Shown: positions 67 to 49,862, numbered from the whole stretch's first letter. The stretch is DNA of 56,829 nt, filler included, from Sphacelaria rigidula (GCA_964200075.2; 7 parts of 7 records of this genome joined end to end with filler, not necessarily neighbours in it), one strand, 5' to 3'. Notes: generated from the letters alone by a model not told the origin. Numbers and translations: made by a program.

Positions 67-108
<42 letters not shown>

Positions 109-225
109 GCTCATCATGATTTGCATGCTATAGTCATTAGACCACTGACCTCGCATCCCTGAAACGTGGGACGGAGCACGCCGGGTTTTCGCCAGACCAG
201 GCGCGCAATTAATCAACAGACGCGA
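61..225 (-). mobile_element. 3' end of a C-tailed LINE-related element (family B-like) with a long poly(C) tail (poly-G on + strand)
   Basis: Reverse complement reads CGTGCTCCGTCCCACGTTTCAGGGATGCGAGGTCAGTGGTCTAATGACTATAGCATGCAAATCATGATGAGCA-C(n). It aligns by eye to 16517-16640 and 32805-32925. Confidence 0.65.
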
Positions 226-392
226 AGAGTTTTCGGGGGAGGGGAAAAAAACTCGTTCATGAAGGCCCTCACGGGCTGCCCATATTCGCGTAGGGTTATA
301 ATTCAGAACATCGGGGAGTCGCAGGGAATGTGATAGCATTCCACTATACATATTCAACTTTCGCAACAAAAACGAAATGAGGAGCAATGCTA

Positions 393-1111: not shown

Positions 1112-1882
1112 TCACCTACATTGCGTGTGCCCTCCTCCGTTATTTTCACATCTTTTTTCTTCTTCTACCATTTCCCTCCATTTTCCCTTGGCGAGTGCTC
1201 CGTTTTTTTTTCCCCTCTGTACCACGGGTAACGTACACACATCTATCTTGTAACCGACTGACTACGACTGGAGGATAATTCATAGCGGATCAGTTACCGT
1301 GCCATAATCAATCCATCAACCAACCATGCAGTTTTTTATCATGTCCAGTCGGACGTTTCAAGGATCACGAGTACGCCCAGACACTCACAAGACCGTCTGA
1401 TGTGTCCTCTTCCGAACTCCCCACGATCCCGGCGTCTGCATTGGCCGTAACGACAGCACCACCATCACCATGTCGTTTTCCAGCCTGTGATGCGGGGATC
1501 GACCTTAGGTAGTGATGCAACGAGAGGGCGAGGTGGGGAGGATGGGGAGGGGGGGGGGTGACTCTTGTGTTGCTTGCCATCTGACCATTCACCACGCATA
1601 CGCTTTGAAACGGAGCAAGGGGAGGGAACAATGAATGGAATACGGTTCGTGTGGTTCGAAGAGGAGCAGATTCCATGCAGCGCAGTGCAGTGCAGTGCAG
1701 TGCAGTGTAGTGGCGAAAAAACGTTTTCCAGTTTACACACAGTTGCCAAGAGATGAGATGATATGATGATGATGATGATGACGATGCAAGGCACACGATG
1801 ACCGTGCACATACTTTGGACTCGTGTTTCATCAGCGTTTTCGCCACAAGGCTTGACAAAGCCACCGGCACGGGCGAGAACGT
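1112..1882 (-). CDS. Possible 3' exons of an unknown low-complexity protein (exons 1882-1814, 1484-1389, 1216-1112)
   Basis: Three segments with AG acceptors and GTATGT/GTGAGT donors splice in phase 0 to TFSPVPVALSSLVAKTLMKHESK|AGKRHGDGGAVVTANADAGIVGSSEEDTSDGL|RGKKNG...CR*. No recognisable homology. Confidence 0.3.
1545..1616 (-). mobile_element. Degenerate mini-copy of the family A LINE 3' end with C tail
   Basis: GGGGGGGGTGACTCTTGTGTTGCTTGCCATCTGACCATTCACCACGCATACGCTTTGAAACGGAGC resembles 15529-15600. Confidence 0.55.
1676..1790. repeat. (TGCAG)n pentamer and (ATG)n microsatellites
   Basis: Directly visible TGCAG tandem run at 1676-1710 and GAT/ATG run at ~1760-1785. Confidence 0.85.
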
Positions 1883-8034: not shown

Positions 8035-8134
8035 NNNNNNNNNNNNNNNNNNNNNNNNNNNNNNNNNNNNNNNNNNNNTTAATTAATTAANNNNNNNNNN
8101 NNNNNNNNNNNNNNNNNNNNNNNNNNNNNNNNNN
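8035..8134. other. Artificial contig linker (N44-TTAATTAATTAA-N44); identical linkers at 16168-16267, 24301-24400, 32434-32533, 40566-40665, 48698-48797
   Basis: Exactly 100 nt each, carrying a six-frame stop 12-mer. Intervening segments fall from 8034 to 8032 nt in descending order. Confidence 0.97.
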
Positions 8135-8503
8135 CTCCCTCCCCGCCCCCCCCTCTTCCGCTCTCCATGGCACGCATTAACATGAGTCCCCCCCCCCCCC
8201 CCCGCCCTCAAACCAACCCAAAAGTGTCACGAAGAAAATGGTCATACAACGCCTGATATTTGGTCTCAGGCTGCAGGAAGCGCCTCATATGGGCGACATA
8301 GGCGTGAAGGAACCCAAGCGTTGGAATTCCCAGCTGCTCGTTGAGCCCGGCTTTTTCATTTCGATTCGCGTGTAGATTTTGCCTCCCCAAACAAGCCACT
8401 TCTTGTGAGGGGGCTATCGTAGAAAGTGTCCGAAGAAGTCAACGTATCTCGCCAAAGCTTACACTACACTGTGCGTCGTGCGTGATACTCCGCGGCGCAT
8501 CAG

Positions 8504-11500: not shown

Positions 11501-12605
11501 CACCTGCCGGTTTGGTAGGGTTGGGGCGTCGGACAATCAACTTCTTGGGGTATCTACCTTCATGGCGGAGATGTTGGAGACCGTGGCTATTCTTCGCAGA
11601 GCTGGCAGGTGGGCCGTTCGAAATAGACAAAACGACGTCTGGCGTGGACCATTTCTCTCAGTTTCAATGTTCAAAACCATCGGAAGGAGGCAGCAGTATC
11701 GAAATGGGTACATTTACTTTATCGTTGTCGCCGTGCGTTGAAATTAGGGGCTCCCTGGTGATCGTGGACGAGTTGGGCCGGGGAACGTCGACTTGTGATG
11801 GTTTTGGAATCGCGTGGGCAGTTGCGCAACGGCTTGCTTCCTCTGGTGAGTGAAATGCGCCTGACATATCGTTCGCTTTCTGTGTCCATCGACATGAACA
11901 CGTATTTTTCCATGTGTTGACTACATAGTAGCGCCCCTTCTGATAATGATCCCGCATGTGTCACCCCGGTGTTGCGCGATACGCGACAGGTTGCCTTTGC
12001 CTGTTTGCCACCCACTTCCATGAGCTTACCGCGCTAGAGAAGAACGACGACGGCAATGGGGTCCAAAATTTGCACGTCACAGCGGAGGCAGACGTCAAGT
12101 CAAACAAGCTCACCATGCTGTATAAGGTAAGCCTTAATGCCAGTATACTCGGCAGGACGCATGGAATGGTTCGCGGAAGTCGGCCCAATAATTATGTGAT
12201 GTACTCCAGCACTACAGCGGAACTGATGAGCTACCTTGGATGCCCCATAATGTTTAGGTGGCTCCCGGATCGTGCGATCGTAGCTTTGGGATCCACGTCG
12301 CCCGCTTGGCTAACTTTCCAGCCCACGTGGTAGCTGACGCTGAGAGTATCGCTGTCGCCCTTGAGAGTGGGCAGCCCCTACAAGCTCACTTCGCAAAAAG
12401 TGGTGAACGGGATAGTGATGCTGCGCTGGAGCCTTCAGCATCACCACAGTCCTTACAACAAGAGCCTGTTCGCCCGGTAGGAGAGAGCAACGGCAAGCAC
12501 ACGTGCGTATCCACTGGAAGCGACAGGGGCAAGCGCAAAGTTCCGGACGATAGTCGACAAGAAGCGCGTGCATCTAGTAGTCCGCCGGAGAAGAGGTCTC
12601 GCTGA
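8504..12605 (+). CDS. MSH2: DNA mismatch repair protein MSH2 (MutS homologue), 3' part; exons 8504-8626, 8989-9074, 9377-9443, 9614-9721, 10023-10122, 10328-10454, 11519-11608, 11748-11845, 11990-12126, 12258-12605
   Basis: Exons splice in consistent phase to ...[155 protein letters not shown]. This gives Walker A and B plus the MSH2-type [12 protein letters not shown]. The 5' exons are absent (contig edge). Confidence 0.93.
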
Positions 12606-15083: not shown

Positions 15084-15535
15084 TAGGCTTTAGCTCCCTA
15101 GGCGCTCTCAAGGTTTAGCTTAATTTGTTATTTGGGTTTGAATGAGATATATTTTTTAAAAGCTTTCAACGATCTTGAAATTTCTGAGAAGCTTATAATG
15201 TGCTCGAAACGCGCATAAGATTGCGATAATTTTTTATGCGCCTCCTGCAGCCATTGTAGCAGCTGCCTGAAAGTACCCCATATGGGCCATCCTCGTCACC
15301 AGACAGGCTTCACTACTTCGAACTGCCACGGTTGCGGGTATGATGAAAAAACGTTCCGCTATATATTTCATTTATACGTGATACTATGTTGAATTGAAAC
15401 ATGTATCAAGATTTTGTGCGAAAATTGTACAAGGACTTAGGTGACCGGATCGGATACGCGGTTATGATCAAGTAGAATCGGAGCCGAAAGTTTGGAAATA
15501 AATCAAATGTCGACTGATGGTGGATGATGGGGGGG

Positions 15536-15600
15536 CGTACTCATTTGTTGCTTGCCTTAGTCATTTGACCATTGACCACGCATCCCTTTCGAGACGGAGC
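15536..15600 (-). mobile_element. 65-nt mini-retroposon (family A LINE 3' end) with perfect 18-bp TSD
   Basis: TGGTGGATGATGGGGGGG at 15518-15535 and 15601-15618. The body matches the 3' ends of the LINEs at 20585-20655 and 32311-32380. Confidence 0.88.
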
Positions 15601-16516
15601 TGGTGGATGATGGGGGGGGCTGGGGTGGTAGCTTGTAGCTTTCCGGGCGACAAGCTCAAGGCTGCAATATTCTGTGTCCAGAGGCTGCAATGCCCCACTG
15701 CTGTATCATGTATAATGAGTGTATCTGGTGGCATTTGTTGTTTCGATAGAATAGTCCATCAGGTGGTTTGGGGTGGCTTCTAAACTCAACGATCGAAGAA
15801 AAGTTCTATTTTTTCGATAAAAAACATGTTAAAAAACTTCGAATACCCAAATTGTCGTCTTCTCCTCATGCTGGAAGGCTCGCCTCGTGAGGAGATACTG
15901 CCACAACGCCACAAGAAGGACGGGAAGGGGGCGCAGGAAGTACGCATGTTTCGCTGAAAAAAGCTTGGAATGGGGCTTATAACAACAACAAAAACTTGAA
16001 TGTAGAAAGAAAATGGAGATTTTTGGCCCACGGATTGTTCACTTTTGGGACATTTGACCCATCTTTTGACCCACAAACAGGGAAAACCGCCAACACACGT
16101 CTCGGACACTTTGCATCGCCCCACAGAGAGGAGCCTAGTCTGCTATAGATTCGCTTGGCTCCGAGGTNNNNNNNNNNNNNNNNNNNNNNNNNNNNNNNNN
16201 NNNNNNNNNNNTTAATTAATTAANNNNNNNNNNNNNNNNNNNNNNNNNNNNNNNNNNNNNNNNNNNNCTTGTGCGTCTGGAATCGTTGGGAGACCCTGAA
16301 CCAGACAAAATTTCGCGAAAAAAGTGCACCCCTACCGTAGCACTACTCAAAACAAACAAACTATATGTTTGTGGCGGGAATCGAACCGGTATTTTTCGCA
16401 CCCTCATGGGGTGCATTGTGCCTTTGAATCGCCGAGGATATGAACTCACGATGCTTCGACGTAATAAATTTGATGCAATTTGTTTGCACTACTGGGAGAG
16501 CGAGGCGCGCGCGCGC

Positions 16517-16970
16517 GGGGGGGGTGTACTCATGATCTTGCATACCATAGTGATCACCATTAACCTCGCATCCCGACAAAGCCGGGACGGAGCACGCCGT
16601 GTTTTCGCCGAATCGGGCTCGCAACCAATCACCAACACGAAGCGCCATGATGTGTTCGGCGGATCGCATGAAAGGGTGAGCTACATCCTGCTGAGATTGT
16701 TCGGCTCGAAGCGTGCCGATTACCTTGCATATAGATGACAACCTCGAATAAGTTGCTGGGTTCTCTGATATCAACACTTCCAGAGATAGCCGCCGGTCAC
16801 ACTACTCATGTGTGTCTCACCATTCGAACACTACGCAGTACAATCATCTCCTTTGCGCCGAGTGAAGATTCTCCGCCCCGCACAAAATGATCTTACTCAG
16901 CCACCATCACGGTTTCCGCAGAACAACACAAGCGAGAAAAAAGAAAACGGAAACCTGGTTGCTAGCCCAC
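16517..16970 (-). mobile_element. 5'-truncated LINE-related element, family B, C-tailed
   Basis: Ends (sense) ...GCTCCGTCCCGGCTTTGTCGGGATGCGAGGTTAATGGT...CATGAGTACACCCCCCCC. Homologous along its length to 32805-33640. Confidence 0.7.
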
Positions 16971-17510
16971 CCAGAGTGGCGTGTTACACAGCGCCGTTGC
17001 CAACCGACGCCGACCTCTGACGGGAAGAGGGTGGCGCCATAGAAATTCACGAATGTTTGCAAAGGCCATTGATTGACTGGTCGATTGACCGTCTTATATC
17101 AAGCGATCCGTCATAAATCCACTCGTGGTCACACAATACCCGTAACCAAGCAATATACACAGATACGCTCGTTACAGGAAGCCAAGCAGAAGTAAGACAG
17201 AAGAGGAGCCCATGAGAAACAAAACAACGGTAAGAGAACTAACTGCCAACAACGAGGTGAATGACGGGAGACTTCAAACTTGAAACGTCCTTCTCGAAAA
17301 ACGACTACTAGGAGATACAAATCAAATGGTAACACGAACAGTATACGACCAATACCCGTTTTTCCGGTACACCTTCATTTTCGGGGTGGATATGTGGTAG
17401 CGCCATTGCTTGGGAGTAACTCTCATCCCACACGGTGGAAGAAGATAGATGCACAGGCGTATCTGGATTCTGCGCTGGCGATCAACAGCGACCCGACACG
17501 GCTATCCTTC

Positions 17511-17768
17511 CAAGGGCCCGCAGAGTTAACGATTCGTCTTGAAATTAGTTGGCTTTAGTCTAATTGATTCGTACCGTACGAATCAATCCTTGGGCTTTGT
17601 TTTCAGCGTTGCAACCCAGGTACGCGCAGCCCAGGCGCGTGGAATGATGCGAAAATAGCGTGGAGACCTTTTCGACCAGCGGTCAACTTTTCCCTCTCTT
17701 TCGAGCAATCGGGCTTGATATATCGTGGATTTGGTGATTCGAACCGGCGATAACTCGTGCGAAACTTG
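17511..17768. mobile_element. hAT-type MITE copy 2
   Basis: Homologous (inverted) to 4187-4445. Flanked by TATCCTTC (17503-17510) and CATCCTTC (17769-17776). Internal palindrome TTGATTCGTACCGTACGAATCAA. Confidence 0.8.
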
Positions 17769-19779
17769 CATCCTTCGAGCTCAACAAGGTTTGAATCAAA
17801 TATCGCGCAGTCTAGTAGAGGCACATGTGCAGCATGACAAGCGCTACGTAACAAGTGATTTGCCTTGGCAATGCAAGCAGGAACAACAACACCCTCCGAC
17901 TCCCTCACTCACCCTCACGAAGGCAGGGAACAGATGCAAGGCCCTGCCCAGCTCCATGATGAGAGACGCTAGGCCGCAATTGGCTATTAAAGTCCCGACG
18001 CACCGATGAGCCACGCCGTAGGCAATAAGCCGCCCGCACAGCGACCCCGTGCTCCCGACCCCAGTCGCGGCTACCTGCTCTCGTGCAGTACGGGTGGCAA
18101 AAACTCATGGGATGAAGAGAAGCAGCGTCGAATTTCATGCGCAACCAACCCTGTGTGCTGTACACATTTTTTTCCCAAGACGAGAGGGGGTGTGGGGGCG
18201 TGCAGACAACAGCTAGGTCATACGTTACTCCAGGGAGCAAGGGTCGTCAGCCCAGGGAGTAGCTACACGTTTGATATGCTTGACAAGGTATTTAATAAGA
18301 GAGGTTCCTCGAAGATGAGATCGAACAATAAAGTAAGGTTCAACCAAGACAATTCTCCCCTTGACCTTAAGTTATTACAATGACTCTCACAGAGACGACC
18401 TCATTACCCCCGACCTCCGTGAATCTGTGTTGGAGGTTGCCGTCTGCCGTTCCCTCAAACGGTGTGTGCGAAAGCACCTTCTTCAATCGATTTCGAGGGG
18501 GAAACATGGACGTTTTTTCACCTTAACAATGGTGATTTCGCACATGCTCTTTGGGGAAGGGGGCGATGGATCACAGGAGCCTCCGAAAAATAGGTTCACG
18601 GAAGTCGGGGGGGGAAAGGTCGTCGATGTCGAAGTCATTTGTCATGACTTTAAGTCAGAGAAAGCACTATTTTGCGGTTGAACTTCATCTTAATGTTCAA
18701 CCTCATTTCCAAGGAGACTGCTTCCACTGTAGGCTCATCACGAGCCCCTTCCGTTATTACCGATTTGCAAAGAAGCGTAAATAGAGGTAAGTCGCGTATG
18801 TGTTTTTTTTTTAACTTTTGTCCAAGGTTCCCGCAGAGGATAGTCTTGGTTGGGGATCGTCTCCAACCGCAACCATCGAATATAGCCAAGCTAACCGTCA
18901 CCAGCATGTAGGTGTTTCCAACGAGTAGGTACGTAGCACGTGTTTGAGGGATAATATGCCTAGTACACACGAATTGATAGAGGGAAGGCGGAAGGAAGAA
19001 AGCGTAAATTGAATGAAAAAAAAACGGCCCTCCGTGAGGGGGGGGGGGGGGGGGGTTGGGGTTGGGGTTTTCTTTGTTTCTGGGCGACCTGGGGTGGAGG
19101 AATGTTTTTTATGNNNNNNNNNNAGAAAAAGAAAAAAAAATAAAATAAAAGAAAGAAAAAAAATCGGGGCGGGGGGGGGGGGGGGGGGGGGGGGGCGTAG
19201 GTTTGCGGGATTCATTGTTTTCGTGCACCCCTGGGTTCACGGAATATTTTACTGAAAAACCACTGTGCAATATACCGGGAAATCTCGAGTTTGAGTTGAT
19301 TTTCTTCATGGGACATTGAGTGTCGTAAAGGATGAAGGCGGTGTTACAAGTAAGCCGGCTTCTCCTTTTGTATTCGTCCCAACTGAGGTGTCTGGGCGTT
19401 GCTGTTTCGCACTCATTCAAGAGTAAGAAACCGGCATCCAGCAAAGTAACAAACCGTACTTACGCTGTTGGTCACAATAACTACGCATCACATTGCCATC
19501 AAATGAGCAAAGTCGAGGAATCTACCCTGATTTCGCCTGAAACCAAAAAGACCGCACCGACGGTAATACAACATCAGTCCAGGGACTAATTCCTGACATA
19601 ACGCAGGTATACCGCACCATGAAAATTGAGGACCAATTACACAATCATGAGAAATATTTCTAGCGTCTCAAAATCCAGACCCGCATGACGGCCGAGGAAA
19701 TAGATAAGATATTGCTGATTGATCCTGATGATTCACTGCAGGTCATGAGGTAAAGACACAAGAAGTAATCTCAACTCAC

Positions 19780-20067
19780 CAGATTCACGTTCTTGGTGAC
19801 GTATGGAGGCCAATCCCGCCGCCATACCAAGTGCACAACAACCGCCAGCATCAACAGGTGGTGAACCGCCGTGAAGGCTAACATCGTGTAGTCTATCGCA
19901 TGTAACGACTCCCAGGGTTTTGGCCAGTAAGCCTGTCCTTCGTCACCCCCCATACCCAATCCTCGACTCAAATCCGTCCACAATGGCGATGGCACCGACT
20001 CAAAATCTCGGTGGTTGCGTTGGTGCAACGTAGAGTTGAGCTCGTTAGTATCTACTCCTCTCAACAT
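19780..20067 (-). CDS. Exon (probably first) of a putative membrane protein
   Basis: MLRGVDTNELNST...IDYTMLAFTAVHHLLMLAVVVHLVWRRDWPPYVTKNVNL followed by a GTGAGT donor. A hydrophobic helix is followed by a basic loop. Downstream exons not found. Confidence 0.55.
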
Positions 20068-20566
20068 GGAAGAAAAAAATCGCCGCTTGCATGGGAAGCA
20101 CCGCCGCCGTGAATCTTTCTAGCAAGGTCCGGATCGCCGTGGGTCTGATCAGAAGCGATCAGATTGAGCCTGATGTTGTGAAGGAAACAATCAACCGTAA
20201 AGACGCACACGATCACATTCAGACCGACCGTGGTCCGAGTAACCACAGAACCACTTGACGTACACACACAAATGACTCCTTGTGTCCACAGCACAGCCGT
20301 TTCTTGTGAAGTGTACCGCAGCCCAGCCCCGAATGCTGAAACACGACCGTTTGCTGCCCAGCATATGTGTCTTACAGATATCTTTGTCGACACCGGAAGA
20401 CCTGTCCTTCCGGTGAAACCTGATACAATATTAGCCGTTGGGAGGGACATGCGCGATAAGAGAAGAAACGACGTAAGCAATAGCACCCAAAATGAAGCCT
20501 AAGCAGGGCAGCGGGCAGAGGCGACGGATGTTTTTTGTGGTTGAGGTTGTATTGTTGGAGCGGGGG

Positions 20567-23500
20567 TGATGGGGGGTAGGAAGGGGGGCGTGCTCATTTG
20601 TTGCTTGCCTTCGTCTTTTGACCATTGGCCATGCGTCCCTTTCGAGACGAAGCGCCGTTCCCACTCCTAGTAGAGACACCTCCAACGTTTCGGTACTCAG
20701 TACGTTTCTTCGACACCTTACACAAAACCTTTTACACATATTTTCCCCGTTCTGTTTCGCCGTCTGTGGCCATTATCTATCTCCTATTATGTTCATCGTT
20801 TTCTCGCTACTGTCTAGATCTTTTGCATCAAACGATTCCATACCACCTCCGTTCACGTCCCGCATTTCCCCCTCTAGTACGTCCCGTTCCTTCTTGTAAA
20901 TATATAGTTCAAAATCTGCAACGTTATAAGTTCTACTCTCTATTGCTTCACCACAGTGGCAATTCTGTGCATCTACTTCCTCTTGCTCTCGACTACTGGT
21001 GTATATCTTTCTTCTTTCTGGCAGGTCAGGCAACCCGGAATCGCAGTTTGAATTTTTCCACACCGTCCATTGGGCCATGCAGATATTTTTCATCCCCATC
21101 CCCTCTCTCAAGTCCTCTTATATCTTCAGGTGCTCTTCGTCGTCTACTTTGCGTCTGGTCGCTTCGTTTACCCTTAATTCTATCATGTCTCTTACTCTTG
21201 TCTTGTACCTCGCGCCTTCACCTATGGACAGTATTTCGTCTTGGTTTCCTCCTATGTCCTCCCACCATAGAGCTACTTTCTCGACTTATCTATCCCACCT
21301 TACTCCAGTCTGCCCTTTCGTTACTTTGTTCCATACAGCTCTATCGACTATGGCTGACAATTCTTTCTCTGCATATTCTTTACGCTATATTTTGATCGTG
21401 TCTCATTATGTTGTAAATGGGTACATTCCCAACTCTGCTCTCAAAGCTGTATAACTCGTCGTTTTTCGAGCGCCCAAGTATTTCTCTGCTAATGCCATCT
21501 GCACTGTTTCCAACTTCTTCACCAACTTCACATTCCCCTCCCATACCTCTTGAGCATATTCCAGCTTTGATACAATCACGTTCAGCAGGATATATCTCTC
21601 AATCCTTGTACATGGATGCGAGTCCCTGAGGATCGCGTCCATCCTGCTCATCTGTGCCTTATCGTATTCTATTGCTTTATTTATGTATGCATCCCAAGAG
21701 CATTGGTTTTACATTCATCTGCGCCAAGGCCTGTATAATGGTCTACGATCGGCAGTTTCTCTTCTCCCCATTTCCATTTGAACTCTACCGGATTTTTCTC
21801 ATCTTCGTTACATACGAGTACCGCGCATTTGTTGACGTTCGCTGTCACTCTCCATCTCCCAGTGTATTCTAGCGCCTCCTCCATTTGTTTCTGCAGCCCC
21901 TCTGCTCTTCCTGAAATCCCCACAAAATCATTCGCGAACATCAATCCTGATACCATATCTTCACCCACCTTGACTCCTTGCTTTGCTGCTTGTATTGCTA
22001 TTATCAGGACATTCACATACCTTGAACAAAGTGGATGATAACGTACATCCTTCCGCGAGTCCTTGTAAGATATCAAAATACTGCGATGTTTCCTCGCCTA
22101 GCATCATAGCACTTTTGGCACATTCTGTCATCTCTTTCACCGTTCTCTACATATTTCCTCTGATCCCAGTTTTCCACAACTTCTTCCACAGGCCATTTCT
22201 CCATACCAAGTCATAGGCCTTTTGCGCGTCGAGTACATTGTCAGTCCGGTGTCTTTCCTGCCCTGAGTGAGCTTACTTAGTGCGTATACATGGTCTACGC
22301 AACTAAGGTTTGGTCCGAAACCTGCTTGCCCCTCGCTGATTCCTCTTCCGTCTCAATGCATCGTTCCTACTCTATCGTTCAGGATCTTACATAATGCCTT
22401 CCGTGCCGTGCTCGGTAGAGTTATTCTTCTATAAATTCCTAGGTTAGCCTTGTCTCCTTTTTTGAAAAGGTTGAATTTTTCTCCTTCTCTCCACCTCTTT
22501 GGTGTGTACTCGTTTTCCCAGATCCAGTTATACAGCATAACCATAATGGTCCTCATTTCCTCTCCCCCGTACTTTGAAAATTATTTCACTACTTCGTCTG
22601 CCCCTGCTGCGTTTCTGTTCTTGGGTTTAGCTACATACTCCTTCACTTCATCTCTAGCTAACTCTCTCTCTCTCTCTGCAGTTCTGCGGAACCACCATCC
22701 TCCCATTTTGACGCCTCTACACTTGCCTCTGCCCATGCGTTGATTTCTTCTTTGAATTACGTGTCGAACTTCGTGTTAGTTTGTTGTTGTTCCTAGTTTA
22801 CGGTAGTACTCTACTAGCACGTCTCTCTTCTCCTTTGAACTACTGACCATTTTGCCGTTCTGTGGGTGATGTGGCTATCCCCTTGTCTCTCTTTCATGCC
22901 TGGTTTCTCAGGATCCATTTATCCCTACCCACATTTGTTTCATTCCCCCAACGAAATCTTCAAATGTTTTATTCACTTTATCTTCCTATACTCCCTTCTT
23001 TTTCTTGTGTACCGTTTTTTTCACTTCCTGTCGAGCTTTAGTATACTCCTCCCATCCTGCCGTAGTTTTACTCGATATGCATCTTGCACGGGCCTCTCCC
23101 CTCACCTTTATAGCCTCTTTCACTTCCTCATACCACCATTTTACTGCTCTATTGCATACGATCAGTTTCTTCCCTATGACTTCACTCGATATGTTCTTGA
23201 TCAAATGCTCCCACACTTCTATAATCTTCGCTCCTGCCCGATTTCTTTCCATTTCGGTATCAACTGTACCTACGCGTTCCAGCAGTTTGGAAAATCTCAC
23301 TGCATCCTTGACCATCTCTTCTTGGAATTCTTGCGTTTTTTTTTCATTTCTAGTATATCCATCTCCATTTGTACAACTTCCCACCCCGCCTATTTCCTTT
23401 GCTCGTAGCTCTCGTCTGTAGGCTTTCTGTCCATATTAGGCAGTGATCTGTGGTTCTCACGTCCTCCGACCATACACGTACTTCCATTTATTTACTATTT

Positions 23501-23676
23501 TCATGCTTCACTATATAGTCGAGAACAGAGCATTTTCTCTCGTCTTTGCATATCCTAGTTCATGTCCAATGCGCCTCTGGCTATTGCGCTCTATCGTCCA
23601 GCGTCTTCATCTCGCTCTTTTCGAGGAACTTCAGCATTGCTACCTCATTCGTGTACGTTTTTTCTTCCCCGTATTG
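20567..23676 (-). mobile_element. Degenerate 5'-truncated LINE (family A: APE end, RT, C-terminal CCHC-type motif)
   Basis: Fragmented ORFs: NRAVKWWYEEVKEAIK, WENEYTPKRWREG..LFKKGDK..YRRITL, GLMFANDFVG (YADD equivalent), KLEYAQEVWEG, CHCGEAIESR. Many stops and frameshifts. C-rich tail. Candidate degenerate TSD 20549-20566 / 23671-23688 (14/18). Confidence 0.92.
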
Positions 23677-24529
23677 GGGGAGGAGGGGCGGGGCGGGGGA
23701 GAGAGATTCACGTTGCCTCTTGCACGAAGGAACCACTCCGAGGTATTACGAGGAGCAGATTTCACAGTATCTGAGGATACTATGATGTCCTTTGAGGTGG
23801 TTAGGGTTAAGTAGGATACAAATTCGGATACTTTGGCGTGCCGATGCGCTGAGTACTTCGGAATATTGCGTATTTTCCAACCGTCCGTGCTCTGTTTTGT
23901 TTGATTGATCGAGAATTGTCGTACATGAAGTTATCCAGAGGTATCTAGCCGTGGTTATCATGTAGGCATACCCAAGGTAAAGTAAACAAAACGGAGACAC
24001 TCGATGTAGGAAGCTCGACAAAAGGAGAAGTTAAAGAGGATGATGATGCTGATGAAAAAAAGCCTAGGGAAGAACAAGAGAGAGGAACCAATACACACGG
24101 AACAAGATGTAGCCAACCCATTCAGCATTTGCTTGACTTCAAGAACCAGACCAGGGGCGAGAAAAAACATACCGAGGAAGATATTTGGGGAACTACTCTG
24201 ATTAGGCACGAACTGTGATTAACGAGCTCAACAGGAGAGAGATACAACTACCGCTACAACATATGGAAACAATGACGACAGAGGGGGGGGGGGGGGGAGA
24301 NNNNNNNNNNNNNNNNNNNNNNNNNNNNNNNNNNNNNNNNNNNNTTAATTAATTAANNNNNNNNNNNNNNNNNNNNNNNNNNNNNNNNNNNNNNNNNNNN
24401 GTTGTCATACTACACATCAGCCCCGCCAACACCGCCTGCTCGGAGACCGTCCACCCTCGCCCCCCCCCCCAACCCCCCCCCCGCCGGGGACCCCAACAAT
24501 CAAGCCTTACCGAGCGTTGGAGCACTCAC

Positions 24530-29439: not shown

Positions 29440-32390
29440 CGTGTGAATAATAAAAATGATCGAAGACACAACATTCGACGGGAGCATGTGGATAAGGGTG
29501 CCAGGAAAGTGGGGAACGAATATTTTCTTGTAGGGGACATCTACATACCCCCCGAATCGAAGAGTGCGCTAGACGATATATAGAAGAGGTTTGGGGAGAT
29601 AAACAATAGATGGACAGGGGTATAGAAGGCAAGGAAAAGTAATGCTAGTGCGAGATTTTGATGCAGGGGTGGAAAAAACAAGTCAACCGGATGATATCAT
29701 TGGGCAATACGGGGGAACGAAGAATATACAATTGGGTCAGAGAAGCTGAAGTTCCCTGAGAATAACGAGATGAAGACACTGAACCAGACAGCACAAAAGC
29801 CAAGGACGCAACGGACATGGACTAGAAAAATGCCAACAAGATAGAGAAACCTTCGCTCTTGACTAAAGAATGGTGAAGTATGGAAATAGTAGGAAAATCG
29901 GGGTACATGCATGCACAGAGGACATGGAAACTGCAGATCATTGCCTAATATAGACATACAGCCACCAGACTATACGAGATAGGTGGGGTAGGAAGTTATG
30001 CAAATGGAGAATAGATTAACTATAGATAAAAGAAAAACAGCAAGAGTTCCGAGAAGAAATGGCGAAAAATGCAGTGAAATTTTCCGAGCTTTTGGGAAGC
30101 GTAGTCACAGTTAATACCGAAATGGGAAGGAATCGGGCAGGAGCGAGATTATGGAAGAATGTGAGCGAATAGCAACTGGTCGAAATCACAGAAAGCAAAG
30201 TCATCGGGAAAAAACTAATCGTACGCAACAGAGCGATAAAGTGGTGGGATGAGGAAGTCAAAGAGGCTAAAATAGTAAGGAGAATAGCCCACGCAAGATA
30301 CATATCGAGTAAAACTACGGTAGGATGGGAGGAGCGTGCTAAAGCTCGGGAGGAGGTAAAAAATATGGTGGAGAAAAAGAAGAAGAGAATATGGAAATAT
30401 GTGATTCATAAAACAAAAGAAGAAATCGATGAGAGGAGTACGAGCAGAGCACCATAGAAAACTAGGGACAAAAACAACTAACGATAATTTCGACGCGGAA
30501 TTCGAGAAAGAAATTGACGCGTGGGCAGAGGCAAATATGGAGGCCTCAAAACGGGAAGATAGTGGCGCAAAAGAATTGCAGCGAAAGTCACCAGAAAGGC
30601 AGCAGGGGCAGACGAATCGTGAGAAAAATCTCAAAATACGGGGTAGAGGGAATGAAATGATTACCATTATGTCTATGCTATGTGATGGGATCTGGGGAAA
30701 CGAGTACACACCCAAGGGGTGGAGAGAAGAAATGGCAGTGAACCTTTTCAAGAAATGAGACAAGGCTTACCCAGGGAATCAGAAAGGAATTTCGTTACTG
30801 AGCACCGTAGGCAAAACATGCTGAAATTTTCTGAATGATAGAGTGGAAACGATTCTGGAGAAGAAAAAATCAGCGAGGGGCAACCAGCATTCAGATCAAA
30901 CCGTAGCTGCTTAGACCATGTGTACACATTAGGTAAGATTAAAGGTAGGAAAGACGCCGAGCTATCAACGTATTGCTTCTTTTTAGACGTACGGAAGGTC
31001 TTAGGACAGTATGGAGAGATATGTTGTGGAAAAAGATGTGGGGAACTGGGATCAGAGAGAATATGTGGAGGATGATGAAAAGGATGACAGATGTGCTGGG
31101 AGAGTGATGATGCTAGATGGGGAAATATCCAGACTTGTTGATAATCTACGAGGAATTGCACAAGGATGTACGCCATTACCCACTTTCTTCAAAGGTATTA
31201 ATTGATGACATGATCGTCGCAGTAGATGCAGCAAAGCATGGAGTCAAGGTGGGGGGAGATACGGTACCGGGAGTGATGTTCGTGGATGATTTCGTGGGGG
31301 TATCAGAAATACCAAAAGGATTCGATAAATAAATGCGCGGTACTTGAAGGTAACGAAGATCAGGAGAACCCGATATAGGTCGAAGGAAGTGGGGATAGGA
31401 GGAATTACCGATCGTAGACCGGTATACATACCTTAGCGTAGAGGTGTCGAAAAATATTTTAGGATGCACACATGGACAAAGTAATAGGAGAGGGTAAGTC
31501 AAAGACAGGCAAGATGGACGTGATCCTAAGAGACTCGCACCTGGATAATGACATCAGGAGATGTATTCTGATTATTGTGATTGTATATCAAAGTCGGAAT
31601 ATGCAGGAGGAATATGGGAGGGAAACGCGAAGTTGGCGAAGCAGCTTGAAACAGACAGTACAGATGACAGCAGCTGAGGAAATACTTGGATGCTCAAAAG
31701 CGACAAGAAAATACAATATTGAGAAAAGAATCAGGAACGTACCCACTTGAAGCAACTAGAGACATGAGAGGATTGAGATGATACTATAACGGAAGGAACA
31801 TGCGAAGACGGAAAGTGGACGAGGAAGAGCACCTGGAGACGTGGAGGAGGTTGAGAGAAGGGTTAGGGATGAAAATATATCGGCATGGTCCCATGGAGAA
31901 CGCGAAAGAGGAGAGATTGCGATTTCGGGCGGGTAACCTGGACCTGCAAGAAAGAGGAACGAGAAATACCAGCAGTCGAGTGGAGGAGGCAGCAGATGCA
32001 CAGAATTGTTCCTGTGGCACCCCAATGGAGAGGAGAACTCATATAGTGGGAGGATGTGATTTATACAAATAGGGACGGGACGTGTTGGAGGGGGAAATGT
32101 GGATGTGGAACTAATCGAGAGTGGCGCATGATTGTATTATACATCAGACAGTAGCGAGAAAACGATCGCTATACTAGGAGATTTATGGTGGGCACAGACG
32201 GCGAAACAGGAAGGGGATAAGATATGTAAAAGTTTTTGCGTCATGCATAGAAGAAATGTAATGGGTTCCCTAATGGTGGAGTTGTCTCAACCAGGAGTAG
32301 GGACGGTGGGCCGTCTCGGAGCGGATACGAGGTCAATGGTCAACTGACTGATGGAAGCAACAAATGAGTATGCCCCCCCCCTCCCCCAGC
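29440..32390 (+). mobile_element. Degenerate LINE (family A), APE-RT-CCHC, C-tailed
   Basis: APE remnants (SMWIRV..DIYIPP, VMLVRDFDAGV, ADHCLI), WGNEYTPKGWREEMAVNLFKK, GIAQGCTP, GVMFVDDFVG, CSCGTPMERRTHIVGGC. Ends AACAAATGAGTATG-C(n). Homologous to 20567-23676. Confidence 0.92.
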
Positions 32391-32533
32391 CCGCCGGGCC
32401 CCCGCCCCCTCTCCGGGGGGGGCGCGCGTCAGTNNNNNNNNNNNNNNNNNNNNNNNNNNNNNNNNNNNNNNNNNNNNTTAATTAATTAANNNNNNNNNNN
32501 NNNNNNNNNNNNNNNNNNNNNNNNNNNNNNNNN

Positions 32534-35500
32534 ATTGCCGGTGAATGTGGTGGACCCCGTGAGCCTGGTACGATTACGACGACGGCAGCGGCGACGGGAA
32601 CGGGTATCAATGAGTACTGGACAGTCTCGCATATTGCCATTCCAACGGGTGTGGGGTGCCACTTATGAAAATCACGCTGTAGTCATCAGATCGTTGACCT
32701 CGCGTCTCAAACATTACGGGGCTGAGCGGTATACTCTATTTTCGGCGGGCCAGCCTGCATTACAAAATGACCACACACATTCTATGAGAGTGGGCAGGAC
32801 GAGAGTACACTCATGATCTTGCATACCGTACTCGTAGTCGTATTGACCATTGATCTCAAATCCTCACTAAGCCAGGACAGAGCACGCCGGGTTTTCGTCG
32901 GACCAGGCTCACAATCAATCACCCAGCGCCAAGCACCGTGATGCGTCCGGCGCGTCGCAAGGAGGGTAAGCTGCATCCTACTATCAAGATTGTTCGACCC
33001 GAAGCGTACTGATTATCTTGCATTTGGGTGACAGTCTACCATGAGTTGCTTCATCTTCTGGTTTCGCCAATTCCAGAGCAGGGTTAGAAAAACTCCGCGC
33101 GGGCCTGCGCTGGCGCAGATTATTAGGAAAACGTGGGCGATGCGCAGCTGTTGGGAGTTTCTCTCTGCGGCTTACCCGAGGGGGAATAATTGGGCCGCAC
33201 TCTTCTTGCCGGAGTCGATTTTGTTTTCTGCGGCCTTTTTTTTCTCGCTGGAGGCGCAACATGTTTCTGGGGGTGTTTTTTCTCGCCGCGAGGCTTATAC
33301 CGTCGAAATGGCCCCATTTTGACAAAATCTTGGCGTCTTTTTGAAGGGAAAACCCGAAAGGTTTCAGCTGCGCGGGGGGGCGCATGTCGCCTTCGGCTCT
33401 CGCCTGCGCAAGCGCAGGCGAAGCCTACGGAGGTTTTCTAACCCTGTTCCAGAGGCAGTCACGGGCTTCAGACTGCCTCATGGATGTCTCACCATGTGAA
33501 CACTAAGTAGTATGACCATTCCCTTGGCGCGGTATCGAGGTTCTCCTACCCCGCACAATATGATCTAGCGTTACCACCATCATGGTTACTGCAAGAAAAG
33601 CGCAAGCGGAAAAACCGGTAACCTGGTTGCCTAGCTTACGCAGTGAGTGGCTTGGTTCACAGCTTCGTTGGTAACCGACGCCGGCCCTCAAGCGAGGTTG
33701 GGCGGGGATGGGGGGCGTACTCATTTGTTGCCCGCCTTAGTCGTTTCACCATTGACCACGCATCCCCTTCGAGACGGACAACTTAAACGAGGTGGGGGAA
33801 GAAACACAAACTGCACAGTTCGGCAAGCAATGAAAAAAGGTGTAATTTTTATGCCAGGTAGAGTACAGGGAAGTACTGGTACAGTGCTTCGATAGTGCAG
33901 CACATCATAGCTGAAATACACATTTTTCAAAACTTCACAACTTCATCAATTGCCTGCACCTGAGAGGCTTGACCCCAGCTCTGAAAACGTGGAGCATGAC
34001 ACTCGCCTGGAATTACCCAGGCATTCTGAGAAAAGGCGCGGAGGGAAGGGGGGAGAGGGGAGGAATGGTCCGCTGGACAGAGGTATATCACCCCTCGAGA
34101 CACGCACGAGTGCCTTAGGTAGTAACGTGAGTGAGTGCTTCAACGCGGATGAGAAGACCAAAAGCAATGAAGCTTGAACCCTTGCACGAGCAGGAGGCGC
34201 AAAACATGCTTAAGTTGCAAGCATATCACAGGAATAATAGTCTTGTTCTCTTGGATGTCGGTAGTTCAATGTTAGAACGAACGAAAAAGACGCAAAACCG
34301 AATCATACAGGATCGAAATGCGACGGCATCCCACACGCCCCCAGAATATGTGTCTACGTATGTGCTCAGAAAGAAGGAGTGTCAGGTTGAGCAACAAGAG
34401 AACTAGGTGTCTGATTTAGAATGGTGCCCCATGAAACGGGTCATGTTGTACCCCCAGGAACGGGTCATGTTGAATCCCGCGCGGACACTTGTTCAAGTGC
34501 CCCGTATTGAACGACAGTGCTGTGCAATTGATCAATCCTATATCCGAGCAGTCTACACTCAGCCCGACGTTCACCCCGTTAATATCCTACCCTGGACGCA
34601 CGGATATAAAATCTGTCTCACCCAGATGTTTGAGTCTTAGACATGTGGCGAAAAAAAAAAAAATGGATTCCTTCGTTTCGACCCGACGTTTGGAGGTCGA
34701 ACCTCACCCATTGAAAGCTCTATCGTGGGCGCTTGCGGCGGACGTTGGAATCAGGGACCAGAAAAATCATTGCTCCAAGATTCAACACTTGGCCTTAAAG
34801 TCTCTTTCTGTGCGGTCGACATGTTACGTGCATTACCGGTCATACCGCATTGAGACATCTGTACACGATGCAGGATACGAACAGTATGCTGACGAGATGG
34901 GCAATCGCCTTGCGATCGTTCGACGTCGTCGTATCGCACAACACAAGCTGAGAAGACTGCGAATACACGTCATCCCAAACACACCATCACGACAATTGAA
35001 AGTTCGAGCAACAACACGGAACCCTTGCCCGCCCCCGACTTGTCAAGGTTGCAGAAGACCCCACTTCGCGACATCAGAAGAACGAAGGCGAGCCACTGCT
35101 CGCCCCAATTTGCCGTAGCGTGCCAGAGGATGGCCCTTCGCACACAGCAAAATCGCAATAGCCGTTCCAAATTTCGGCGGATAAAGTCAATGTCTCGCAA
35201 ATAAGTACAGATTGACGCAGAGCTGTCTACCGCCGAATCAGCTTACGCGAGCGCGAAAAACATATTCGCGTCTGCCGGCAGAAATCAAGTGAAACAGAGC
35301 AGGCAAGAAGATGGTGGGTCACATCAAGCACTTCGAGCGTGAAAATGCACCAACAGCTGAAAGCGGAGACGTTGACATCTATGTCATGCTATCCAGCCCC
35401 AGATTGTATTTTATTCAAGACATACAAGTCGGAACACCCTCAGAAAAGAAGCACATTTCGTGATCAATTAGTGGTACCAGTAGGGTTTGTACCGCACTCA

Positions 35501-47569: not shown

Positions 47570-48106
47570 TAGCTATCACTGTCCTGTGGTGTATTTACAC
47601 CTTGCGAACACAATTTGGTCTCCGCTGAGAATACCTGAGTTGCTGTATTGTTGTGCTTGTCTCTCTGCAAAATATAGTTTCATTTGGGACACGGTGTTGT
47701 TTACGCACTTATCTTTCGAAAAGTTCATGTGACTCAGACCCATTGTTTGCGCGATATCGAACATGGCTGGGTAAAGACACACGACCAGCGCCCGTATACA
47801 CCGTTCGACTGGCTGGGCCAGACCCCGTGCTCCAATAAGAGGAGCACCCCGCGGAGCAGTGCAGATATACTGCACCGCCAGGGTACTGCTTGCACCCGTC
47901 AGCATGGTGATCGCTGCCGCTGCCACTGGCATCGGCGCCAGCGCTCGCGGACACGGGAGACCACGACGAGCCATACTAAGATGGGGGTATACTGATTCAC
48001 GAGCATCGCAATGACGCCCTGCGGCGGCAATGTACCACTCGCTGTCTGCTCGTCTGCTTGCAGCTTGATTCTCTGCTGCTGTTCCATCCGTCCCGCCGCT
48101 ACTGGT

Positions 48107-48172
48107 CCGTCTCGAAAGGGATGCGTGGTCAATGATCAAATGGCTAAGGCAAGCAACAAATGAGTATGAGTA
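48107..48172 (+). mobile_element. Mini-retroposon (family A 3' end) without C tail
   Basis: CCGTCTCGAAAGGGATGCGTGGTCAATGATCAAATGGCTAAGGCAAGCAACAAATGAGTATGAGTA. TSD CGCTACTGGT (48097-48106) / CGCTACTGTT (48173-48182). Confidence 0.82.
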
Positions 48173-49862
48173 CGCTACTGTTCACTCCTGTACCGTAGTG
48201 CGTACACTACAGGTGTGACTAGAGTGTGCGCGCCGATCACACGCATTTTTCACCACATAATTCACTACAAAGGTCGGATTTCATTGGCGCTAGATTCCGC
48301 CGATTCCTCACTGAAGGGCATCTGATTGGTTGAAATGATCTTCTCGCTGCTAAAATTTTCCCCCATGTATGTGCGTTGTTCAAGACACCGTCCGGACCAA
48401 TCCCAAATAGCACCTGTCACGTAAGAATGTCCTTATCAACAGTACTCATATCAAACTATTTTTGAGACGACCTGATTATGTTCCTATCGTGTCGACTCGC
48501 AGGTAACTAGCTAGAAGTCAATCCACCCTGATCACTTGCACACACGATGTGAACAGTCCCCGTACAACGTGCGGAATGCTTTCTCGGCCTGCAGAGGGGG
48601 CTGTCGAAAAGCAATTTTGGGACACGTGAGCCCAAGATGAAGAAATTCGAATTTTGAAGGGTAGGAGGGGGGGGGGGGGTGTGTACTCATGATCATGNNN
48701 NNNNNNNNNNNNNNNNNNNNNNNNNNNNNNNNNNNNNNNNNTTAATTAATTAANNNNNNNNNNNNNNNNNNNNNNNNNNNNNNNNNNNNNNNNNNNNGTA
48801 CCCCCCCCCCCCGCAACTGGCGTCTCGCACGCTTTTGTCTTTGGGCACTCAGAGGGTCACTCACACCCCCCCCCCCAAGTTTAATTGGATATATCTGTTG
48901 TTTTCGCCGCAGCACCGCCCTTGCTGGCATGTGTGTGACAGAGAACAGTAGTGCGGCGGTGACGGGAACATTGCCCTGTTTTTCAACGACATGTTGTTCA
49001 GCGCACAGAGGCGCGCCTTGCCCAAAAAGAGAGGTAGAGAAATCGATATTCGCATTGGTGAGCTCCACAGGCGAGAAGAGACGAAATCTCTCCGTAGCTG
49101 GATGTTTTTTGGGCGGCTGTCCGCAACAATATAACAACATCCCTACCGGCACACGAGAAATTCGGTACATGCTAGTAACACCCATGATGCCAGTCTCTCG
49201 AGCGATTGGTAATCGCTGAGCGAGGGCACACAAAGGACACGGGCGAGGAGTTTCCTCTCTGTCGTTGCTTCGCTCTCTGGCGATATCGTCATCGACACAT
49301 GTGTACGCCGCATTCGTTCGGTGCACCTAGCTACAACTGATTGACTGCTGCAGAGTTTTGGGGGAGGAGATAATTCGCTTTGTGTAACTGTTTCGCGTCA
49401 TCCCTGCAAAAACGATACGCCACTTGAACCTCATTTTTGAGATGAACCCCATTTTCCAGGATCCACTTATAAGTCGTTCTACGTATGGTATCGTAGTGGT
49501 GCACAAAATGCGCTCGCACTAGCGTGAAGCTAGGACGAAGTTGCGTCTGAACGTGAGGCGATCTTCTCGCAGGCAATCACAAAATGATGTGAGAAATGTC
49601 GTGATTTTGTTTCCAACGTGAAATAACGGTGACGAATTTGTCCAAGAAAGTGAACCCTACTGTAGAACGACGACTCCAAACATGACCATGACAATAACCG
49701 ACCGGACAGAGCACCACAAGAATAACCGCTTCTCTTGAGAACGAAACGCTGATCACCAAAAGTAGCCGTGAAGTCGTGAAATTCGTCAAATGACGAATGA
49801 AAATACCTCTTTCCGTCCGCCAGGGGGGGGTAGTCCGGGATTTTTGTGTCGCATATACCCAA

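What the first reader, a model, noticed from the sequence alone, without database searches (positions are those of the whole stretch)
15518..15619. Poly(C)-tailed retroelements inserting at G-runs: a G/C mirror of L1 target-primed insertion
Seen in sequence: most copies of two LINE-related families end (sense) in ATGAGTAC(G/A) or a close variant, followed by oligo(C) rather than poly(A). Examples are at 61-110, 1545-1560, 8180-8205, 15529, 16517, 20567-20590, 32364-32390, 33703 and 48665-48697. At 15536-15600 a perfect 18-bp TSD (TGGTGGATGATGGGGGGG) itself contains the G-run. The degenerate TSDs at 33687/33782 and 20549/23671 also end in G-runs. Established: L1 primes TPRT by pairing its poly(A) tail to a nicked T-run, so its TSDs begin with A-runs. 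Inference: this APE-RT clade pairs a C-rich RNA 3' end to nicked oligo(dG). That would imply an unusual endonuclease preference and a non-poly(A) 3' end, and could be a source of the poly-G/C tracts seen at several contig ends. I cannot tell whether this is already catalogued.
Basis: partly seen in the sequence, partly recalled or inferred. Interest (0 to 1): 0.78.

Follow-up and report, generated by a model that had tools for sequence, protein, structure and literature searches.

The report
Brown-algal RTE-X LINEs with poly(C) tails
These are decayed and truncated copies of a brown-alga jumping gene (an RTE-X LINE) that really does end in a run of C and sits at C/G runs, but this habit is already noted in a published Ectocarpus repeat catalogue.

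Summary
The window is seven ~8-kb pieces of a eukaryote, brown-alga-like by best protein hits. A profile of the ~65-nt 3' module finds 10 copies, and 7 of 10 are followed at once by C6 to C40 (chance P about 3e-15). The 65-bp copy at 15536-15600 has a perfect 18-bp duplication that contains the run. Three of 3 true copies on marine-metagenome contigs also end ATGAGTACG plus a C run. Contigs of four public runs show hundreds of further copies running into long poly-G at the same junction.

Family A is a 5'-truncated endonuclease plus reverse-transcriptase LINE, colinear with 1328-1360-aa proteins that have near-identical fragments in Ectocarpus. The ORF's TGA stop lies inside the ATGAGTAC motif, so the 3' UTR is only 5 nt. 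Family B shares only the 3' module and looks non-autonomous.

The behaviour is already catalogued. The Ectocarpus TE library (PMC12477816, Supplementary Material 3) lists RTEX-1/-2_Ec32 with "(C)n 3'" and "C-rich" TSDs. My searches found no discussion of a mechanism. Priming of an oligo(C) RNA end on a nicked oligo(dG) fits the data but is untested. New here are mini-copies with one shared 5' end and tandem arrays of them.

The parts
15536..15600 (-). 65-bp 5'-truncated family A (RTE-X-like) copy. It holds the last 19 codons of the ORF, the TGA stop and GTACG.
   Evidence: It translates to APSRKGCVVNGQMTKASNK*V, which equals the C-terminus of P0004. It is 100% identical to L001 over 65 nt.
15518..15535 (.). 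Target-site duplication copy on the element's 3' side. In sense orientation it reads C7 ATCATCCACCA.
   Evidence: Identical to 15601-15618.
15601..15618 (.). Target-site duplication copy on the element's 5' side, followed by an eighth G at 15619.
20589..23682 (-). Long decayed family A copy, 5'-truncated. It covers P0004 residues 334-1360 (part of APE, RT and the C-terminal region).
   Evidence: tblastn hits are colinear at 50-67% identity with frameshifts. It is 74-79% identical to L001/L002 over the last 620 nt.
20549..20588 (-). C-rich tail plus degenerate TSD of the long copy. In sense it reads C6TTCCTAC6ATCAC5GCTCCAACAATAC.
   Evidence: The 5' flank at 23683-23707 is C-rich (0.68 C, longest run C5).
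29447..32372 (+). Second long decayed family A copy. It covers P0004 residues 250-1360 and ends ATGAGTATG.
   Evidence: tblastn. RT motifs are visible in the three-frame translation. It is 73-75% identical to the copy at 20572-23635.
32373..32412 (+). C9 followed by a C-rich tract; the tail of the copy above.
33716..33778 (-). 63-bp family A mini-copy.
   Evidence: Profile hit with E = 5e-20. It starts at reference position 559 of 621.
33687..33715 (-). Impure C tail (sense C6ATC4G) plus a degenerate TSD that begins with a C run.
   Evidence: The 5' flank contains C5ACCTCG.
48103..48174 (+). Family A mini-copy without a C tail. ATGAGT is duplicated at its end and it has a probable 7-bp TSD, GCTACTG.
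1559..1617 (-). Decayed family A mini-copy, with the G10 run at 1549-1558 next to it.
68..230 (-). 123-bp family B copy (108-230) with a 40-nt poly(C) tail, seen as G40 at 68-107.
16517..17015 (-). Family B copy of at least 490 bp with a C8 tail. It has no similarity to the LINE protein upstream of the shared 3' module.
32809..33683 (-). Family B copy whose terminus (ATGAGTGTAC) is not followed by a C run.
32674..32728 (-). Decayed copy of the 3' module, followed only by C4ACAC3.
48667..48697 (-). Family B terminus cut by the piece end, followed by C13 in sense.
8167..8203 (+). About 21 nt of B-like terminus (..ATGGCACGCATTAACATGAGT) followed by C16. It lies just after another C run at the piece start.
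   Evidence: The profile does not detect it.
48798..48812 (+). A piece that starts with GTA plus C12; probably a cut terminus with its tail.

Best explanation
These are copies of a brown-algal RTE-X-type non-LTR retrotransposon (family A) and of a probably non-autonomous element that shares its ~65-nt 3' module (family B). Family A encodes a single ORF with an AP-type endonuclease and a reverse transcriptase.

Shown: the ORF's TGA stop lies 5 nt from the element's end, so the conserved ATGAGTAC(G) motif is the stop codon plus a 5-nt 3' UTR. After it comes a (C)n tract of 6 to 40 nt. The target-site duplications are C-rich and start with a C run.

Inferred mechanism: the endonuclease nicks the bottom strand within or at the end of an oligo(dG) run. 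At the flagship site this would be GGGGGGG^G. [quoted passage not shown] The RT, presumably bound to the 65-nt module, then starts cDNA synthesis. Slippage on the homopolymer varies the tail length. A second nick 7-25 nt away makes the duplication. Because every insertion leaves a new C/G run, later copies land in older tails and build tandem arrays. In principle this is the same tail/target complementarity as in L1, with C:G in place of A:T.
For: Identity.
- The best hits of a window RT fragment are 1328-1360-aa proteins with Exo_endo_phos plus RVT_1.
- Both long window copies are colinear with these proteins up to the last residue.
- P0005 is 101/102 identical to part of an annotated Ectocarpus protein.
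- The 65-bp insert translates to the exact C-terminus plus stop.

Catalogue.
- PMC12477816, Suppl. Material 3, lists RTEX-1_Ec32 as 'single EN-RT ORF; (C)n 3''.
- It lists RTEX-2_Ec32 with '(C)n termini/TSD' and gives the TSD as 'C-rich'.
- It lists non-autonomous RTEX-N1/N2 that share the 3' 60-100 bp.
- In that table only the RTE-X families carry (C)n. RTE has (CAA)n, CRE has (CA)n and Chlamys-1 has (A)n.

Tails.
- 7 of 10 profile-defined copies are followed by C>=6.
- 3 of 3 true copies among 6 metagenome pattern hits end in C8, C10 or a C-rich tract.
- In contigs of 4 runs from 3 studies, 731, 633, 452 and 78 contigs diverge just before 15529 into a poly-G consensus.

Target.
- A perfect 18-bp TSD contains the run.
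- 4 of 6 5' flanks hold C>=5, against a 2% background.
- Tandem joints 15600->15529 occur in 71, 57, 39 and 3 contigs.
Against: - Three of 10 copies have no C run, and one of them (48103-48174) has a clean non-C TSD. A run is therefore not obligatory.
- At 15536-15600 the run is no longer on the 3' side (7 C) than on the 5' side (8 C). Tail and target cannot be told apart there.
- No RNA 3' end was seen, and no empty site was recovered.
- The window sample is small. The 5' boundaries were set by alignment, and by tblastn for the long copy.
- C-rich 5' flanks could partly be older tails rather than native targets.
- Placement in RTE-X rests on the published annotation notes and shared features, not on a phylogeny done here. 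Pfam hits on the decayed window ORFs themselves are only weak (RVT_1 E = 0.07-0.17).
- The consensus fold of the 3' module shows 0 compensatory changes in 15 pairs.
Confidence: 0.8

Rival explanations
1. Target-only model. The RNA has no C tail, and the endonuclease simply prefers to nick at oligo(dG). All C next to the element then belong to the target or its duplication, and long runs arise later by replication slippage.
For: The flagship copy has 7 C on the 3' side and 8 C on the 5' side, so no net tail. 5' flanks that cannot contain a tail are C-run rich. A copy without a G-run target also has no tail.
Against: 3' runs reach C40. Loose-end consensuses of hundreds of contigs extend 15-22 G beyond the 7 present here. 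This is longer than any 5'-flank run seen in the window (maximum 8). At 33716 the 3' side carries about 13 extra C-rich nt that are absent from the 5' TSD copy.
Confidence: 0.2
2. Non-templated addition. The RT, or a host terminal transferase, adds dG to the nicked DNA end before copying the RNA. This would create the sense-strand C run at insertion without any C in the RNA.
For: Tail lengths vary from 0 to 40 among copies with the same terminus. Non-templated addition by retroelement RTs is a known activity (recalled, not from a call).
Against: It does not explain why the tail-free 5' TSD copies and flanks already contain C runs. It also does not explain the tandem arrays, which fit run-targeted insertion.
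Confidence: 0.1
3. Artefact. The poly-G/C tracts would come from two-colour Illumina chemistry or from assembly errors at contig ends, with no biological tail.
For: Several pieces start or end in G/C runs.
Against: Most runs are internal to pieces, and they lie on the strand predicted by the element's orientation in 7 of 10 copies. One run is duplicated inside a perfect TSD. The same junctions occur on unrelated metagenome contigs and in contigs of 4 runs from 3 studies. An independent curated library reports (C)n for the family.
Confidence: 0.02
4. Another clade. The element would be a LINE of the L1/Tx1 group or a new clade rather than RTE-X, and the match to the Ectocarpus RTEX notes would be coincidental.
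For: No phylogeny with reference RTs could be run. The ORF has a C-terminal Cys/His motif (CPCGKAKESRTHIVGEC in P0004). My recollection, from no call, is that classic RTE elements lack such a motif.
Against: In the Ectocarpus catalogue only RTE-X families combine a single EN-RT ORF, (C)n 3' ends, C-rich TSDs and non-autonomous partners that share the 3' 60-100 bp. A P0005-type element is present in Ectocarpus.
Confidence: 0.1

Closest known systems
RTEX-1_Ec32 and RTEX-2_Ec32, with non-autonomous RTEX-N1/N2_Ec32, of Ectocarpus (PMC12477816, Supplementary Material 3)
   Same: A single EN-RT ORF, a (C)n 3' terminus and C-rich TSDs. Non-autonomous partners share only the last 60-100 bp and can occur in tandem. 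Near-identical protein fragments are present in an Ectocarpus genome.
   Different: Sequence identity to the published consensus sequences could not be tested, because the FASTA supplements are not readable here. The copies here are truncated or decayed. The 63-66-bp mini-copies and the position of the stop codon are not in the rows I read (part 1 of 3 of the table).
RTEX-clade LINEs of green algae (PMC3747384, Table 3)
   Same: All 6 listed families end in a simple repeat rather than poly(A).
   Different: Their repeats are (CA)n, (CAA)n, (CCAT)n, (ACAATG)n and (CTTGTAA)n. Here the repeat is the mononucleotide C.
Mammalian L1 (poly(A) tail, T-rich nick site)
   Same: Target-primed reverse transcription in which the primer's homopolymer can pair with the RNA's homopolymer tail. 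TSDs start with the tail's base, new copies land in older tails, and 5' truncation is common. The L1 facts are recalled, not from a call.
   Different: C:G replaces A:T. The tail cannot come from ordinary polyadenylation. A conserved 65-nt 3' module shared with a non-autonomous partner suggests stringent recognition of the template, unlike L1. The clade also differs.
UnaL2 and the I factor: LINEs with short-repeat tails and template slippage (as reviewed in PMC3747384)
   Same: A non-poly(A) repeat tail, a 3' end needed for recognition, and tail length varied by slippage (passages).
   Different: Those repeats are TGTAA or TAA. A preference for targets that match the tail is not stated in the passages I read.

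Membership tests
APE-type non-LTR retrotransposon (LINE) | AP-endonuclease domain N-terminal to a reverse-transcriptase domain in one ORF | tested here: met
   P0004 and P0005 carry Exo_endo_phos (E = 3e-12 and 8e-15) and RVT_1 (E = 1e-30 and 2e-32). The window copies are colinear with residues 250-1360 and 334-1360. The window ORF fragments alone give only weak RVT_1 hits (E = 0.07-0.17).
APE-type non-LTR retrotransposon (LINE) | Variable-length target-site duplications and 5' truncation | tested here: met
   There is a perfect 18-bp TSD, a probable 7-bp TSD and degenerate C-rich TSDs. All 6 family A copies are 5'-truncated.
RTE-X clade / Ectocarpus RTEX-1 and RTEX-2_Ec32 | RT-domain phylogeny, or best BLAST hit, with RTEX reference elements | not testable with these tools
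   No Repbase or Dfam references are held, and the paper's FASTA supplements cannot be read.
RTE-X clade / Ectocarpus RTEX-1 and RTEX-2_Ec32 | (C)n 3' terminus | tested here: met
   7 of 10 window copies, 3 of 3 true metagenome copies, and a poly-G consensus of loose ends in 4 runs.
RTE-X clade / Ectocarpus RTEX-1 and RTEX-2_Ec32 | C-rich target-site duplications | tested here: met
   The 18-bp TSD starts with C7 in sense. 5 of 6 5' flanks hold C>=4 and 4 of 6 hold C>=5.
RTE-X clade / Ectocarpus RTEX-1 and RTEX-2_Ec32 | Single EN-RT ORF with no separate ORF1 | tested here: inconclusive
   P0004 and P0005 are single proteins of 1360 and 1328 aa from contigs of 4.9 and 5.6 kb. Their upstream DNA could not be fetched, and the window copies lack 5' ends.
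RTE-X clade / Ectocarpus RTEX-1 and RTEX-2_Ec32 | Non-autonomous partners that share only the last 60-100 bp | tested here: met
   Family B shares the ~65-70-nt 3' module. It shows no protein similarity upstream (best E = 0.12).
L1-like 'relaxed' LINE | Poly(A) tail and A-start TSDs at T-rich nick sites | tested here: not met
   None of the 10 termini is followed by an A run.
'Stringent' LINE with a conserved 3' stem-loop | A conserved 3' hairpin supported by covariation | tested here: inconclusive
   A two-hairpin consensus of 15 pairs keeps pairing through one-sided changes, but has 0 compensatory double changes. The region is also coding.

The most novel reading that the evidence does not exclude
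The RTE-X machinery truly uses oligo(C):oligo(dG) pairing for target-primed reverse transcription, as a G/C mirror of L1. By leaving a fresh C/G run at every insertion it feeds on its own tails. That would generate the tandem arrays of 72-bp units and much of the genome's excess of G/C homopolymers: 25 runs of >=7 in the window against about 4 expected. The last ~65 nt are coding sequence plus a 5-nt UTR. They would be a self-sufficient retroposition module, which would explain mini-copies that all begin within 4 nt of each other. The published catalogue rows and the papers I searched discuss none of this.
Probability: 0.35. Interest if true: 0.5.

Novelty: already known. Interest (0 to 1): 0.3.

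Why it matters
This result files the finding correctly. It is a recorded property of brown-algal RTE-X LINEs, not a new class of element. The mechanism is still worth a test. A homopolymer tail that ordinary polyadenylation cannot make, paired with a matching target, would be a natural experiment on how far tail/primer complementarity guides LINE integration. Practically, these elements explain why short-read assemblies of such genomes break at poly-G/C tracts. They also explain why such tracts are several-fold over-represented.

Tried and rejected
- Own genome: none is held, so the proposed genome-wide tabulation could not be run.
- Pfam on all 134 ORFs of >=100 aa found no RT. The copies are frameshifted, and the long ORFs lie on the pyrimidine-rich antisense strand by composition. 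RT was recovered only by three-frame reading, homologue search and tblastn.
- Metagenome scan with a 19-mer gave 6 loci, of which 3 were chance matches with no upstream homology.
It was repeated on one piece.
- In one search no joint that skips the 65-bp insert (an empty site) was among the listed joints, and 282 joints were not shown. All runs are contigs, so no RNA 3' ends or copy numbers can be read from them.
- No RNA holder is listed for the stretch. Runs X6-X9 are only guessed to be RNA.
- The joints 8207->15535-15539 rest on ~20-nt low-complexity sides, and I did not interpret them.
- Earlier findings of this scan returned nothing, by place or by sequence.
- Literature: no paper holds 'non-LTR retrotransposon' together with 'poly C tail'. 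Five other term sets gave nothing on C-tailed LINEs. The main text of PMC12477816 has no occurrence of 'C-rich', 'G-rich' or 'insertion preference'. I read only part 1 of 3 of its Supplementary Material 3. Its FASTA library and PDF supplement could not be read and may say more.

Full report
**What the window is.** The 56,829 bases are seven pieces of about 8,033 bp joined by [44 N]TTAATTAATTAA[44 N] spacers. "Contig ends" in the finding are therefore piece ends. The DNA is eukaryotic. A MutS domain V gene is split over several frames at 11421-12602. The best protein hits of the repeat are Ectocarpus proteins. Public runs that hold piece 2 are labelled with one coded organism and "algae metagenome". 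No whole genome is held.

**Checking the observation.**
- The 18-mer TGGTGGATGATGGGGGGG is identical at 15518-15535 and 15601-15618 and flanks exactly 65 bp.
- ATGAGTAC occurs 8 times against 1.18 expected; 0 of 100 shuffles reach 8. Five of the 8 lie at element termini.
- For a count that is not biased by the tail, I aligned ten 3' modules without tails, built a profile and searched the window. It finds 10 copies with E <= 7.5e-5.
- Seven of the 10 are followed at once by C>=6: C7, C6, C6, C9, C40, C8 and C10. A random position has a 0.43% chance of this, giving P about 3e-15.
- Three of the 10 lack a run: 48103-48174, 32809-32934 and the decayed 32674-32728.
- Three further termini cut by piece ends also carry C13, C16 and C12.
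- G/C runs of >=7 number 25 in the window against about 4 expected from base composition. About a third of them sit at recognisable termini.

**Evidence from outside the window.**
- A scan of metagenome contigs with a 19-mer from the module, tail not included, gave 6 loci. Three have upstream homology to the element, and all three end ATGAGTACG plus C8, C10 or CCTCCCCCCCTCCTCCC. The other three are chance matches.
- I laid the Logan contigs of four runs from three studies on piece 2. The 268-bp bin holding the module has a summed depth of 4.8 million in X1, against 67 for single-copy sequence. The tool warns that this is not a copy number.
- In those runs 731, 633, 452 and 78 contigs (X1, X3, X4, X6) leave the window just before 15529. 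The consensus of their loose ends is a long poly-G, so other copies carry longer runs than the 7 G here.
- On the other side 674, 600, 480 and 107 contigs continue into the element body.
- Joints "15600->15529, goes back 72" occur in 71, 57, 39 and 3 contigs. They show tandem arrays of [C run + 65-bp unit].

**What the element is.**
- The long copies at 20589-23682 (-) and 29447-32372 (+) are 73-75% identical to each other. They are full of frameshifts and stops, so Pfam sees only weak RVT_1.
- RT motifs are visible in three-frame translation.
- A 138-aa fragment finds 7 proteins with E down to 2e-53. Among them are P0004 (1360 aa) and P0005 (1328 aa), which carry Exo_endo_phos and RVT_1.
- tblastn shows the two window copies are colinear with residues 334-1360 and 250-1360 of P0004.
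- P0005 is 101/102 identical to part of an annotated Ectocarpus protein.
- The 65-bp insert translates to APSRKGCVVNGQMTKASNK*V, the exact C-terminus of P0004. The ATGAGTAC motif therefore contains the ORF's TGA stop. The 3' UTR is 5 nt (GTACG), and the conserved "tail" region is coding sequence.
- Family B (108-230, 16525-17015, 32809-33683) shares only this ~65-70-nt module. Upstream it has no similarity to the protein (best E = 0.12). It looks like a non-autonomous partner.

**Comparison with what is known.**
- The curated Ectocarpus TE library is in Genome Biology 2025 (PMC12477816). I read passages of the main text, a term search of four supplements and part 1 of 3 of Supplementary Material 3.
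- It lists RTEX-1_Ec32 as "single EN-RT ORF; (C)n 3'", RTEX-2_Ec32 with "(C)n termini/TSD", and the TSD as "C-rich".
- It lists non-autonomous RTEX-N1/N2 that share the 3' 60-100 bp and "can be present in tandem".
- Among the LINE and PLE rows only the RTE-X families have (C)n. RTE has (CAA)n, CRE has (CA)n and Chlamys-1 has (A)n.
- RTE-X is the most abundant LINE group there, with 16,418 copies.
- Every feature I could test matches. The phylogenetic test could not be run.
- A review table shows that all 6 green-algal RTEX families also end in simple repeats rather than poly(A) (PMC3747384, passages).
- The behaviour is thus catalogued. The main text of the Ectocarpus paper has no occurrence of 'C-rich', 'G-rich' or 'insertion preference'. 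Seven literature searches found no paper on a C-tailed LINE or its mechanism.

**Mechanism.**
- Shown: the target itself carries the run. The 5' copy of the flagship TSD, which cannot contain a tail, starts with C8 next to unique sequence.
- Shown: of six copies whose 5' ends I could place, 4 have C>=5 and 5 have C>=4 in the 25 nt upstream. Background rates are 2.0% and 6.8%, giving P = 2e-6 and 8e-6.
- I left out the long copy at 29447 and the two long family B copies, because their 5' ends are undetermined. I also left out the decayed module at 32674.
- Inferred: the bottom strand is nicked in or at the end of the G run (GGGGGGG^G at the flagship site), and the G-run 3'-OH pairs with oligo(C) on the template.
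- A real tail, not just target, is suggested by C40 at 68-107, by the long poly-G loose-end consensus, and by about 13 extra C-rich nt on the 3' side at 33716. At the flagship copy the counts are 7 against 8, so tail and target cannot be separated there.
- The copy at 48103-48174 has neither a run nor a C-rich TSD (its TSD is GCTACTG), so a run is not obligatory.
- The tandem arrays are what run-targeted insertion into older tails predicts. Other origins, such as unequal exchange, are not excluded.
- No RNA evidence was obtainable.

**Extra observation.** Four of six family A copies are 63-66 bp long and begin at reference positions 556-559 of 621. That is where the homology between families A and B starts. 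One of them has the perfect TSD, so such mini-copies are genuine insertions. A two-hairpin fold of the module is predicted consistently but has no compensatory support: 0 of 15 pairs.

**Verdict.** The novelty is low because the feature is already recorded for brown-algal RTE-X LINEs.

Noticed in passing
8035-8134, 16168-16267, 24301-24400, 32434-32533, 40566-40665, 48698-48797: The window is a concatenation of seven ~8,033-bp pieces joined by [44 N]TTAATTAATTAA[44 N] spacers. Features must not be read across these joins.
   Followed up: yes
15536-15600, 33716-33778, 48103-48174, 1559-1617: Four of six family A copies are 63-66-bp mini-copies that begin within 4 nt of each other, at the 5' edge of the module shared with family B. 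Contigs of four runs show tandem arrays of such units with a 72-bp period (71, 57, 39 and 3 contigs).
   Followed up: partly
15536-15545 (-) and the equivalent termini: The ORF's TGA stop lies inside the ATGAGTAC motif, so the 3' UTR is only 5 nt. The putative RT-recognition module is therefore coding sequence.
   Followed up: yes
48160-48174: ATGAGT is duplicated at the terminus (ATGAGTATGAGTACG) of the one clean copy that lacks a C tail. This may be a trace of re-priming or slippage at the RNA end.
   Followed up: no
19038-19055, 19171-19195, 24283-24297, 24460-24482, 48866-48876, 50237-50247: These long G/C runs (11-25 nt) are not next to a recognisable RTE-X module. They could be tails of other families or of decayed copies.
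   Followed up: no
55696-56091 (+): A second, divergent RT fragment, 31-32% identical to P0004/P0005 over 124-132 aa. It is probably another LINE family, and its 3' end lies beyond the piece.
   Followed up: no
11421-12602 (+): MutS domain V matches are spread over four overlapping frames. This is an intron-containing or frameshifted MutS-family gene.
   Followed up: no
8135-8402 and 15907-16167: Both ends of piece 2 have very high summed contig depth in all four runs (for example 389,254 and 363,106 in X1, against 67 for single-copy sequence). Other high-copy repeats lie there.
   Followed up: no
2735-3173 / 47153-47571; 4192-4428 / 17528-17763; 3812-4005: Further dispersed repeats at 78-82% identity, plus a short-period tandem array at 3812-4005. 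None is related to the finding.
   Followed up: no
20001-24000 and 30001-32000: There is strong strand composition skew over the long LINE copies (GC skew down to -0.22 and up to +0.35). The sense strand is purine-rich, which creates long spurious ORFs on the antisense strand.
   Followed up: partly
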